From: Phallusia mammillata
Taxonomy: Eukaryota
Length of the DNA: 64,000 nt
Reading direction: 5' to 3'
Assembly: GCA_965637545.1 (NCBI GenBank)
Contig: OZ281497.1
Coordinates: 14,818,001 to 14,882,000, forward strand
This document shows positions 31,862 through 34,800 of the stretch, one piece after another. Made by a program: the position numbers. The stretch's first letter is position 1; each line of letters begins with the position of its first letter.

Positions 31862-34800
31862 TAACCTAGTATATGTGTACTGTTATTTGGCTGACACTAA
31901 TTTGCTAACGCTGAGACATGGACCGAGATTTATGAGACGCAACTGCGCTAGGTTGAAAACAAAAATTGTTCAAATAATGAAAAGGTGAACTTTTGTATGT
32001 GGTTGATTTAAACAAGTCAAAACGTCTATAAAGCGAAATATATTTATGCGACCAAAGTCAGTTCTGTGGCCAAATAAAGGCCTGGTTCACCATTGCACAT
32101 AAATATCTCAGTTTCTCATCACGAAAACAAAAGAAAAAACATACTAACCTTTTGCTCGCAAATTTGAATACAAGTTTATCTGTCACGAACATGGCCATTA
32201 AATGTCTACTGGACTTCGTCCCTCTTTTGAAAGTGTCCCTTGTGTTTTTGCATTCATTTCTCTCGTCTGGATCAACTTCAACTTTAACCGGTAACTTGCA
32301 TGACAACCTTGATTGTCTCCGCTTGCCTTCGTGTTGCGCCTTTGTAAAACCCTTAGAGTAAAAGACTTTTCGGTTTCTTCATCTACCAAAACCGCGACGT
32401 CGCATCTCCGCGGAAGCAAAGAACGCTCGCATTCTGAATCACGTTCATCCGTTCGTGGTTCGAATCTCACCAAAGCCAACCCTGAAGGCGACCGTTCTTT
32501 TAAAGCCCCCATAAGCCCACTGAAGAAATCCCTTGCTCCTAGCCATAGCGACACATGCTTGTCCAACTATAGCGGCAACGAAGACGACGTAGAATTGTTA
32601 TCCAGTGTGGTTGACTGCTTTGCAAATCTGCGTGGCGCTTATAGTCTCCAAGCTGATCTTGACATCTTGACACGTTCGCTTGGATCCGACGAGGAAAGAA
32701 ATTGTTTAAACTGGCTCGAGGAAGACTTGCCTTCGCTACCGCACGACCAGTGTGTTGTTGTTACTTGCATTGCAAGATGCTGGCTGTTGTGCTTGAAACT
32801 GTTTGTACATGAGTGTTGGATGTTATTTTTAGGGATATACTGTTAACATTCGGTCTTGATATTTTTATTTTTTGGCTGGTTTTGAGAACAGGTGACAATT
32901 AAGTTTAAACAACCATTTAAGTACTGGGCCCTGAGGGTTTTATACTTAAGCGTGAATACTCTAAAATCCCTATAAAAAATCTATACGAATCACCCATTAA
33001 AATTTATTGTTGTGCATGCAAAGTCATGATCAAAAACTTTGTAACGCTTCTGTTATAATTTACTTCTTCATACATGAAAAAAGTCAATTGTGTAAACAAC
33101 AAAAACTATTTTATTTTGTCAGGGTGAAGGAACTTGCTGTGGACGACGGAGCTGACGAACCTTTCAAGAAGCGACCGGCTGTTGGTGGACCCTTGGAACG
33201 GTTGGACGAATCTCCACAACACGTTAGCATTCATTCGCCCAATAACAGCGACCTTGCGTTGATCAGCTCCATGTGTGTAAGTACTTGAAACTTAGTTTAC
33301 TTCATGAAATGATAGCAAGTTGTCACAACGACAACGGTGAACACTTCTAAACTCTATCCCAGAACTCTGTTTTCCATCGTATATCTAATTGCACTTTGCA
33401 TAAAAGCATAAAAACAACACAAAAAAGTGGATTGTTGAAACGATGACAATGAAATGTTACGCAATGAACTTGATTTCTCAGTTTTTTCTATGAAGTTTCC
33501 AAAACTGTCGCAAAGTCAAACGGTGTTTGCTTTGCTGCACTTCTAAACATAAGATCTGTTAATAAGCAGATGTTGAATGGGCAATGACATGTGTTAACAA
33601 ATCCCAATAAAGCTTACACAGGACATCCAGGAACACGCAGACACACAAACATGTTTAAGTGACAAGTGATACCTTTTCTGCACTTTTAAATTCACAGTTG
33701 AGGCTTAGCCATGTTTAGGTTACTTGTAAAGATATCATGTCGAGTTTAATATGATACCATTTTGATAAAAAAGTCTAGCAATTTAAAGTAATTTGACTAG
33801 CGATTTGAAGATCCAAAAATCACAAGAAAAAATGTCTTGAAGGTTAAATATATACACTGGGACCAATATTTCAGTACTTCGCTTTTTTATGCCGCCATAA
33901 TAGCTCCAATGCTATTTTAAACCTTAATGTGAGATATAGTCATTGCTCACGGAAAGACTAATTTGGAATTTGGTGATATACCTAAAAACACGAAAGTGTA
34001 ATGGTGTTGGTGTATGCAAATTCTATAATTACACACTAAAATATCTGCTGAATGGAAATATTAAATCTATAGCTAACACCATTAAAAAAGTATTGAACTT
34101 GCCCATCACTTCTGCAGGAGAACGAATTGTCACGTGAGATGTATGAGGTGCATCAAACTGTCACCAGTCTACAAGAAATTGAAGAGGAAACCGTTGAATG
34201 TCACCGCAACTTTCTCCAAGGGGTAAGTCGTTTTAACTACGCCCGAACCGCCCTTTTCTACAAAACCACATCGCTGATTGATGATACCGCATTAGAATTT
34301 GTTTTTGACTACATCTGTTGTGGAAAATGACTCTTTTGAAACGAGTTTTGCCTAATATAGGGCGTCACCTGGTGGCTTAGGATTTGGTCGCAAAGTGTAA
34401 AATGGTAACGATTTGTCAGATTGTCGCAAACTAGTCGGGTCAGATGTCCCAACTGTTGCTAATTTGTGTTGAACGCTGTCTTTTGGCACACCAAGAACTG
34501 TCGAGATGTTTGCTGTATTCTCCCCACAATAGAATGACCTCGTTTGAAAACTCACACCACCGCACCCAAAACCTCAGGTTACTCTAATTCAAACACAAGG
34601 CGTGGCATGGCGTGATGAGAGAAACTATTAGATGCATTGTTACGTCATAAGATGCCTCAGTTTCAATGCACTATGCAAGTTAATTTGTGGCACAGATATT
34701 GGTCAAATCATTTCGAAATTAACCTGCTACAATTGCCTGCTGATTCTGTATGATTTTTAAACTCGTTTTCCATCTATGTTTGAAAACTGTGGGATTGTTT

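What the first reader, a model, noticed from the sequence alone, without database searches (positions are those of the whole stretch)
32357..32846. Hidden KIF2 alternative exon that duplicates the motor's last helix start (RVKDF versus RVKEL)
Within the intron after YADR, an exon starts in the same phase and restarts the motif as RVKDFSVS, then runs Ser/Arg-rich and acidic. A GTGTGT donor, the same hexamer used by TESK exon 7 in this window, makes it a 131-aa in-frame cassette. Read-through instead gives a truncated isoform without the dimerising tail. From memory, vertebrate KIF2A has a roughly 38-aa cassette at this junction beginning RVKEFGIS. If so, this would be a chordate-ancestral splice event with a much longer insert here.
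Basis: partly seen in the sequence, partly recalled or inferred. Interest (0 to 1): 0.65.

Follow-up and report, generated by a model that had tools for sequence, protein, structure and literature searches.

The report
Unrecorded alternative exon in ascidian KIF2
An intron of the sea squirt Phallusia's KIF2 microtubule-shortening motor gene hides a real, conserved optional exon that inserts 131 residues just behind the motor, at the same spot where vertebrate KIF2A has a shorter optional exon.

Summary
The window carries the Phallusia mammillata KIF2 (kinesin-13) gene: 17 coding exons, 23740-37319 on the + strand, reproducing the public 725-aa record P0004 exactly. That record skips the candidate exon.

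Window 32357-32749 lies in intron 13. It is 393 nt with an AG acceptor and a GTGTGT donor, and keeps the frame in phase 2. Related inserts occur in Ciona intestinalis RefSeq isoforms X1/X2 (X3/X4 skip it), in Clavelina, in Ciona savignyi and in four unnamed ORFs. So it is a genuine optional coding exon. It is already modelled in relatives but was not found in any Phallusia protein record.

Vertebrate KIF2A has a 32-42-aa optional insert at the same protein junction, also starting VKEF. Beyond those four residues the two inserts show no significant similarity. Common ancestry is therefore plausible but not shown, and amphioxus was not examined.

The splice sites are weak and a G+T-rich tract follows the donor. 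The insert has an unstructured Ser/Arg/Lys-rich first half and a conserved, possibly helical, acidic second half.

A second hidden 42-nt exon lies at 24399-24440.

Interest is moderate to low.

The parts
23740..37319 (+). KIF2 / kinesin-13 gene of Phallusia mammillata: 17 coding exons, all introns GT-AG
   Evidence: Walking P0004 (UniRef A0A6F9DG17, 725 aa) along the window gives 2178 coding nt with an exact match. Pfam finds Kinesin, the KIF2A-like N-terminal domain and Microtub_bd on P0004.
31682..31860 (+). Exon 13, the last exon wholly inside the motor domain; ends ...RYAD + AG (phase 2)
   Evidence: Pfam Kinesin profile 264-322 of 327, E 5e-19. Boundaries.
32357..32749 (+). Optional cassette exon, 393 nt / 131 codons: VKDF start, Ser/Arg/Lys-rich first half, conserved acidic second half with possible helices
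   Evidence: Translation. It is 42% identical over 115 aa to the insert of Ciona intestinalis KIF2A isoform X2 and 47% over 118 aa to P0002. It is absent from the Phallusia record P0004.
32330..32356 (+). Weak acceptor region of the cassette (pyrimidine-poor, ends ...CCCTTAG)
   Evidence: It scores -1.5, against 3.7 to 13.5 for the 16 constitutive acceptors, on a matrix trained on those same 16 sites.
32750..32889 (+). Weak GTGTGT donor followed by a G+T-rich tract, a candidate intronic splicing-control element
   Evidence: The donor scores 2.4, against 4.7 to 11.0 for the constitutive donors, and is the best in-frame GT in the ORF. The G+T fraction is 0.714 and 0 of 938 intron windows of the gene reach it.
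32750..32846 (+). Read-through extension: 31 Cys/Val/Leu/Phe-rich codons, then TAA
   Evidence: The tail is not conserved with the read-through tails of P0002 or Clavelina P0014.
33123..33276 (+). Constitutive exon 14, starting (R)VKEL
24399..24440 (+). Second unrecorded optional exon (42 nt, phase 0/0) in intron 3
   Evidence: It is flanked by AG and GTTAAG. It encodes 14 residues sharing a 7-residue run with the mini-insert that separates Clavelina isoform X2 from X3, and a 6-residue run with the one that separates Ciona X1/X3 from X2/X4.

Best explanation
Window 32357-32749 is a genuine, protein-coding, optional (cassette) exon of the Phallusia mammillata KIF2/kinesin-13 gene. When included, it inserts 131 residues directly behind the motor domain, between the motor and the C-terminal region.

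Shown here:
- The exon and its frame.
- Its orthologues in other tunicates.
- The skipped form in Phallusia, and both forms in Ciona.
- Completion of the motor-domain model in both forms. The first residues of the cassette (V-K-D-F) do the job that V-K-E-L of the constitutive next exon does in the skipped form, so both isoforms keep an intact motor.
- Weak splice sites and a G+T-rich tract after the donor.

Inferred:
- Inclusion is regulated by tissue or stage through the weak sites and the G+T-rich tract.
- The insert changes how the motor and the C-terminal region talk to each other, or brings phosphorylation and partner-binding sites. Its first ~60 residues are an unstructured Ser/Arg/Lys-rich linker with a conserved basic-Ser motif. 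They are followed by a strictly conserved Ser/Asp/Cys motif and a ~35-residue segment predicted, at low confidence, as two helices.
- It shares its origin with vertebrate KIF2A exon 18.
For: Exon anatomy
- AG acceptor, GT donor, 393 nt, and a phase that matches both neighbours.
- The ORF is exceptional: 8th longest of 6631 in the window, and 1 of 3000 shuffles reaches it.

Homologues
- A search with the exon alone found NCBI 'KIF2A isoform X2 [Ciona intestinalis]', in which the related 134-aa insert sits between RYADR and VKEL.
- A profile search of 1.84 billion representatives gave 8 hits. Five are cassette-like ORFs (P0002, itself a row of the query alignment, plus P0126, P0127, P0128 and P0132). 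Three are unrelated Thr/Ser/Val-rich repeat proteins.
- Clavelina X2 and Ciona savignyi models also carry it.
- In the 8-row alignment, five columns of the core motif are invariant.
- All 7 tunicate sequences whose start is visible begin V-K-x-F.

Skipped and included forms
- Skipped: Phallusia P0004, Ciona X3/X4, Clavelina X3.
- Included: Ciona X1/X2.

Motor domain
- The Pfam Kinesin match reaches profile position 326 of 327 in included and skipped isoforms alike, for example 331.6 versus 332.8 bits in Ciona.

Splice signals and structure
- Weak sites and the G+T-rich tract.
- Structure prediction: no structure in residues 1-60; helices at 75-92 and 94-108 with block pLDDT 57-66.
Against: - No transcript evidence for inclusion in Phallusia itself was available. 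The one Phallusia protein record seen skips the exon.
- The Ciona and Clavelina forms are automatic gene models.
- The splice-site matrix was trained on only 16 sites of this same gene, so constitutive scores are inflated.
- The structure model is poor overall (mean pLDDT 55.6, pTM 0.20), so the helices are only a suggestion.
- The strict neuronal ELAV hexamer (U6 with one G) is not enriched after the donor: 2 sites, and 48% of intron windows have as many.
- TGCATG is not enriched in the window.
- No function of the insert was tested.
Confidence: 0.85

Rival explanations
1. The exon is used mainly as an alternative last exon. Transcripts enter at 32357, ignore the weak GTGTGT donor, run on to the TAA at 32844-32846 and are polyadenylated within the intron. 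The product is a motor-plus-insert protein without the C-terminal region.
For: - NCBI isoform X2 of Clavelina (P0014, 751 aa) is exactly such a form. It ends in a hydrophobic read-through tail and lacks the C-terminal region.
- A killifish KIF2A record (P0029) also reads through its short insert.
- The donor is weak.
Against: - Ciona X1/X2 splice out of the insert into VKEL.
- The read-through tails of the window, P0002 and Clavelina share no conserved sequence beyond Val/Cys/Phe richness.
- Cleavage and polyadenylation within the intron were not tested.
- The 393-nt length keeps the frame, as expected if the donor is used.
Confidence: 0.25
2. The tunicate insert and vertebrate KIF2A exon 18 arose independently in the same intron. 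The shared V-K-E/D-F start reflects only the need to finish the motor's last helix.
For: - Without the first four columns, profile-profile comparison of 8 tunicate and 7 vertebrate inserts scores 8.34 over 5 columns, and 153 of 300 column shuffles score as well.
- No vertebrate protein appeared among the 8 hits of the profile search.
- Lengths differ three- to four-fold (32-42 aa versus 130-143 aa where both ends are defined).
Against: - Both sit at the same protein junction, RYA[DN]R / VKEL.
- In 7 of 7 tunicate and 7 of 7 vertebrate inserts with a visible start, the fourth residue is F. The constitutive exon has L in the skipped forms listed.
- Short disordered inserts lose detectable similarity quickly, so the negative test is weak.
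- Cluster representatives may lack the insert.
Confidence: 0.4
3. It is a chance ORF, a decayed pseudo-exon, or part of another gene or mobile element lying in the intron on either strand.
For: - Minus-strand ORFs of 122 and 106 codons overlap the region.
- One of them has a sub-threshold HMG14_17 match (E 0.0015, below the curated cut-off).
- The Phallusia protein record lacks the exon.
Against: - The + strand reading is conserved at 42-47% identity with inserts that lie inside KIF2 proteins of other tunicates.
- No stop interrupts 131 codons.
- Boundaries and phase fit the flanking exons.
- The minus-strand ORFs have no family match above cut-off.
Confidence: 0.03

Closest known systems
Long insert of Ciona intestinalis KIF2A RefSeq isoforms X1 and X2 (XP_078487942.1, XP_026691440.2), absent from X3 and X4
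   Same: - Same junction (RYADR / VKEL).
- Same V-K-D-F start.
- Same conserved basic-Ser motif, Ser/Asp/Cys core and following conserved block.
- Similar length (134 versus 131 aa).
- 42% identity over 115 aa.
   Different: - The Ciona insert ends earlier, just after the conserved block.
- The Phallusia exon carries about ten more residues before its donor.
- The Ciona forms are public gene models, whereas the Phallusia exon was not in any protein found here.
Vertebrate KIF2A exon 18 (mouse: 37 Ser-rich residues, inclusion promoted by neuronal ELAV-like proteins; bioRxiv 10.1101/2020.05.07.081216, passages read)
   Same: - An optional insert at the same protein junction directly behind the motor domain.
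- It starts V-K-E-F, is Ser-rich, and is followed by the constitutive V-K-E-L exon.
- This was seen in lamprey, one bird and five fishes.
   Different: - It is 32-42 aa rather than 131 aa.
- Its body sequence is not significantly similar.
- The tunicate-conserved core and possible helical block have no vertebrate counterpart.
- The regulator in tunicates is unknown, and the strict ELAV hexamer is not enriched.
Clavelina lepadiformis KIF2A isoform X2 (P0014), a read-through truncated form
   Same: It carries the orthologous insert with a V-K-E-F-S-V start, very close to the window's, and the same conserved blocks.
   Different: It is modelled as ending in the intron after the insert. Whether Phallusia makes such a form is unknown.

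Membership tests
Tunicate KIF2 long optional insert (as in Ciona intestinalis isoforms X1/X2) | Lies between the last motor exon (…RYADR) and the V-K-E-L exon, in frame | tested here: met
   It sits in intron 13 in phase 2, is 393 nt long, and the split codons give R and Q.
Tunicate KIF2 long optional insert (as in Ciona intestinalis isoforms X1/X2) | Starts V-K-x-F and holds the conserved Ser/Asp/Cys core and the following conserved block | tested here: met
   Alignments. Five core columns are invariant in 8 rows.
Tunicate KIF2 long optional insert (as in Ciona intestinalis isoforms X1/X2) | Both included and skipped mRNAs exist in the same species | not testable with these tools
   Only the skipped Phallusia protein (P0004) was found. 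No transcript reads were available.
Vertebrate KIF2A exon 18 | Optional insert at the RYA[DN]R / VKEL junction that starts V-K-E-F | tested here: met
   The junction is the same at protein level. The window has D in place of E.
Vertebrate KIF2A exon 18 | Sequence similarity of the insert body | tested here: not met
   Profile-profile score is 8.34 without the first four columns, and 153 of 300 shuffles score as well.
Vertebrate KIF2A exon 18 | Short length (32-42 aa in the 7 records seen; 37 in mouse) | tested here: not met
   The window's insert is 131 aa.
Vertebrate KIF2A exon 18 | Same intron phase at DNA level in vertebrates | not tested
   No vertebrate genomic DNA was used.
Vertebrate KIF2A exon 18 | Inclusion promoted by neuronal ELAV-like proteins through U-rich sites with G | tested here: inconclusive
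   A G+T-rich tract follows the donor, but the strict hexamer is not enriched. Binding is not testable here.
Kinesin-13 (host gene) | Internal kinesin motor domain plus a KIF2A-like N-terminal domain | tested here: met
   Pfam PF00225 (E 1.8e-100) and PF22923 (E 6.7e-23) on P0004, which the window encodes exactly.

The most novel reading that the evidence does not exclude
The Phallusia exon and vertebrate KIF2A exon 18 descend from one optional exon that already sat at the motor/tail hinge of the single KIF2 gene in the common ancestor of tunicates and vertebrates. Tunicates then extended it with a conserved phospho-motif and a helical module that gives the included isoform its own partner or its own control of depolymerase activity. 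Such a role might act in neural tissue or at the cortical ER domain where ascidian Kif2 works.
Probability: 0.35. Interest if true: 0.55.

Novelty: new member of a known kind. Interest (0 to 1): 0.35.

Why it matters
Phallusia Kif2 is an experimental protein. It localises to a cortical ER domain and drives asymmetric spindle position in ascidian embryos (PMC5640700, passages read). Those passages do not mention splice forms; the word 'splice' occurs 0 times in the text.

An unrecorded isoform with 131 extra residues at the motor/tail hinge, plus a second 14-residue optional exon, means that constructs and antibodies used so far may represent only one of up to four forms.

For vertebrate KIF2A, a positional counterpart of exon 18 in tunicates gives a simple chordate in which to test what an insert at this hinge does.

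The find is incremental. The exon is already in automatic models of Ciona and Clavelina.

Tried and rejected
Searches that added nothing
- Pfam on the insert: only a chance-level match (E 0.19).
- Sequences of solved structures, searched with the insert profile: 0 matches at E up to 1.
- Three long Thr/Ser/Val-rich repeat proteins from the profile search were judged unrelated.

Tests that came out negative
- Tunicate versus vertebrate insert body: not significant.
- The apparent shared 'S-H-S-D' between the bird record and the tunicates is therefore treated as chance.
- TGCATG (which I recall as the Rbfox site) flanks the exon at 32297 and 33013. The window total of 46 matches the shuffles (mean 48.5), so it carries no weight.
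- The strict ELAV hexamer is not enriched.
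Full report
**What is in the sequence**

Exon 13 of a + strand kinesin gene ends at 31860 with ...R-Y-A-D and the two bases AG, followed by the donor GTAACC. The constitutive next exon starts at 33123 and reads (R)V-K-E-L.

Inside the 1262-nt intron, an AG at 32355-32356 precedes 32357. Reading in the same phase from there gives (R)V-K-D-F-S-V-S and stays open for 131 codons, down to a GTGTGT at 32750. The stretch 32357-32749 is 393 nt, so splicing it in keeps the frame. 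Every coordinate in the finding is therefore correct. The window contains no N.

**Is it more than chance?**

The stop-to-stop ORF (177 codons) is the 8th longest of 6631 in the window. It is the longest + strand ORF in any of the gene's 16 introns, the next being 102 codons. Only 1 of 3000 dinucleotide-preserving shuffles of intron 13 reaches 177 codons.

**Whose gene is it?**

- The downstream exon alone found one protein, a 725-aa 'Kinesin-like protein' of Phallusia mammillata (UniRef A0A6F9DG17, P0004).
- Walking P0004 along the window places 17 coding exons from 23740 to 37319. All introns are GT-AG and all 725 residues plus the stop match exactly. The window is therefore Phallusia mammillata, an ascidian, and not human.
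- P0004 reads ...R-Y-A-D-R-V-K-E-L..., so the one Phallusia record seen skips the candidate exon.
- Pfam finds the kinesin motor domain, the KIF2A-like N-terminal domain and Microtub_bd.

**Is the exon real?**

A search with the 130 residues of the exon alone, restricted to longer proteins, returned 2 proteins among 352 candidates.

- One is NCBI 'kinesin-like protein KIF2A isoform X2 [Ciona intestinalis]' (P0003, 877 aa). A related 134-aa insert sits there exactly between R-Y-A-D-R and V-K-E-L, with 42% identity over 115 aa.
- The other is an unnamed 232-aa ORF (P0002, 47% identity over 118 aa) that also starts V-K-G-F and reads through a GT-repeat after the insert.

A profile of these three sequences, run against 1.84 billion cluster representatives, gave 8 hits at E up to 0.001.

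- P0002, which is itself a row of the query alignment.
- Four further cassette-like ORFs: P0126, identical to part of a Clavelina model, plus P0127, P0128 and P0132.
- Three long Thr/Ser/Val-rich repeat proteins that I judge unrelated.

The search with the motor exon listed 120 of 6648 hits. From these I read the named non-primate records.

- Ciona intestinalis X3 (759 aa) and X4 (743 aa) skip the insert, while X1 (893 aa) and X2 include it.
- Clavelina lepadiformis X3 skips it. X2 carries it but runs on into a hydrophobic tail and ends without the C-terminal region.
- Two Ciona savignyi models carry parts of it.
- The Styela clava record shows the skipped form.

Across the eight tunicate sequences, the conserved features are the V-K-x-F start (7 of 7 sequences whose start is visible), a basic-Ser motif, a strictly conserved Ser/Asp/Cys core (five invariant columns in eight rows) and a following block ending in a conserved D-L-D-I-L.

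A frame kept open, with blocks conserved between phlebobranch and aplousobranch ascidians, shows a coding exon under selection. This rules out a chance ORF, a pseudo-exon or a foreign gene. The overlapping minus-strand ORFs have no family match above cut-off.

**Why the repeated motif?**

In P0004 the R of R-Y-A-D-R is residue 563 and the Pfam Kinesin match runs to residue 566, which is profile position 326 of 327. The last three residues of the motor-domain model therefore come from whichever exon follows.

In Ciona the match ends at the same profile position, with 331.6 bits in the included form and 332.8 bits in the skipped form. The same holds for the lamprey pair. A solved KIF2A motor construct (2gry) aligns to P0004 up to residue 567.

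The four shared codons of the two Phallusia exons differ at every third base. The likeness is thus kept at protein level and is not a recent duplication. By my recall of kinesin structure, the motif is the C-terminal end of the motor's last helix, not its start.

**Splice signals**

- 14 of the 16 constitutive donors of the gene start GTA, and none is GTGTGT.
- I scored all sites on a small matrix trained on those same 16 sites, which flatters them. The cassette acceptor scores -1.5 against 3.7 to 13.5 for the constitutive acceptors. The cassette donor scores 2.4 against 4.7 to 11.0. Even so, 32749 is the best in-frame donor in the ORF. Weak sites are usual for regulated exons.
- The 140 nt after the donor have a G+T fraction of 0.714. 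No other of 938 intron windows of the gene reaches it (mean 0.505).
- I tested the obvious idea that this tract mirrors the neuronal ELAV control described for mouse exon 18. The motif I used comes from PMC4798961 (passages read): U6 with one G. That strict hexamer is not enriched: 2 sites, and 48% of windows have as many.
- TGCATG is not enriched either.
- The tract is therefore a candidate control element of unknown reader. From recall, GU-rich elements bind CELF-type factors.
An ORF whose translation looks to me like the end of a kinase domain stops at 50997, directly before GTGTGTGA. The remark is plausible, but the exon number and actual use of that donor are unverified.

**The vertebrate comparison**

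Seven named non-human vertebrate KIF2A records carry an insert of 32-42 residues between R-Y-A-[DN]-R and V-K-E-L, always starting V-K-E-F-G-I. These are lamprey X1, one passerine bird and five teleosts. Lamprey X4 and many fish records skip it. A preprint on mouse Kif2a describes exon 18 as 37 Ser-rich residues whose inclusion neuronal ELAV-like proteins promote (10.1101/2020.05.07.081216, passages only).

The bodies of the inserts are not detectably related.

- With the first four columns removed, profile-profile comparison of eight tunicate and seven vertebrate inserts gives a score of 8.34 over 5 columns. 153 of 300 column shuffles do as well.
- With those columns kept, only the first ten columns align (E 0.021).

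What argues for one origin is the identical junction and the F at the fourth position in 14 of 14 inserts, where the constitutive exon has L. What argues against is the lack of any further similarity and the three- to four-fold difference in length.

No amphioxus or other deuterostome sequence was examined. 'Chordate-ancestral' is therefore not shown, and a common origin in the ancestor of tunicates and vertebrates is plausible at best.

**What the insert may do**

- Residues 1-60 hold 15 Ser, 5 Arg and 7 Lys. They have no predicted structure, with block pLDDT 46-49.
- Residues 61-130 are acidic and Leu-rich. They hold the conserved core and two predicted helices at 75-92 and 94-108, with block pLDDT of only 57-66.
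- The model as a whole is poor (mean pLDDT 55.6, pTM 0.20), so I did not search folds with it.
- There is no Pfam family and no relative among solved structures.
- My reading is a regulated hinge insert. It would lengthen and charge the link between the motor and the C-terminal region and add conserved Ser motifs and a small helical module for control or partner binding. This is inference from position and conservation only. Nothing here tests it.
- The ascidian Kif2 paper that used the Phallusia gene maps targeting of the cortical ER domain to the N-terminal 72 residues. It does not mention splice forms (PMC5640700, passages read).

**Verdict**

This is a real optional exon that was not found in any Phallusia protein record but is already modelled in Ciona and Clavelina. 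It is positionally equivalent to vertebrate KIF2A exon 18, with unproven common descent. I file it as a new member of a known kind, of moderate to low interest.

The literature searches listed no paper on a tunicate KIF2 splice form.

A second unrecorded 42-nt exon at 24399-24440 turned up on the way.

Noticed in passing
window 24399-24440 (+), in intron 3 of KIF2: A second hidden optional exon of 42 nt in phase 0/0. The acceptor is ...TTTTTTTAG and the donor is GTTAAG. It encodes 14 residues containing S-Y-R-S-F-R-K. It matches the 15-16-residue mini-insert that separates Clavelina X2 from X3 and Ciona intestinalis X1/X3 from X2/X4. The Phallusia record P0004 skips it. With the main cassette this allows up to four isoforms.
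   Followed up: yes
P0040 versus P0037 (Petromyzon marinus KIF2A X1 / X4); also P0031: Lamprey KIF2A models differ by a further 27-residue insert inside the C-terminal region (after ...L-C-E-Q-N), in addition to the exon-18-like insert.
   Followed up: no
many teleost Ensembl-derived records (for example P0056, P0066-P0069, P0075, P0077): Numerous fish KIF2A models continue past R-Y-A-N-R with W plus unrelated residues and end soon after. They look like read-through of the same intron, giving motor-only forms. Whether they are artefacts or real is unknown.
   Followed up: no
window 48262-50997 (+): Exons of a protein kinase gene give Pfam Pkinase / PK_Tyr_Ser-Thr matches at 48262-48384, 48703-48897 and 49181-49417. 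An ORF that looks like the end of the kinase domain is followed by GTGTGTGA at 50998. Its identity as TESK was not tested.
   Followed up: partly
window 1665-6494 (-) and 13637-13870 (+): Four minus-strand ORFs have sub-threshold DOMON-domain matches (E 5.5e-07 to 4.5e-05), suggesting a multi-DOMON gene. One + strand ORF carries the RNA polymerase Rpb5 C-terminal domain (E 1.1e-32).
   Followed up: no
window 56006-63913, both strands: A cluster of the longest ORFs in the window, with no Pfam match at E up to 1e-4. The lengths are 398 aa at 59129-60322 (-), 385 aa at 56006-57160 (+), and 235, 209 and 207 aa. The region is also richer in G+C (0.43-0.47).
   Followed up: no
window 27590-27930: There are near-repeated ORF translations about 185 nt apart (27466-27768 and 27651-27836), and an A/G-rich (Lys/Glu/Arg-coding) low-complexity run in KIF2 intron 5. 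This is probably a repeat element.
   Followed up: no
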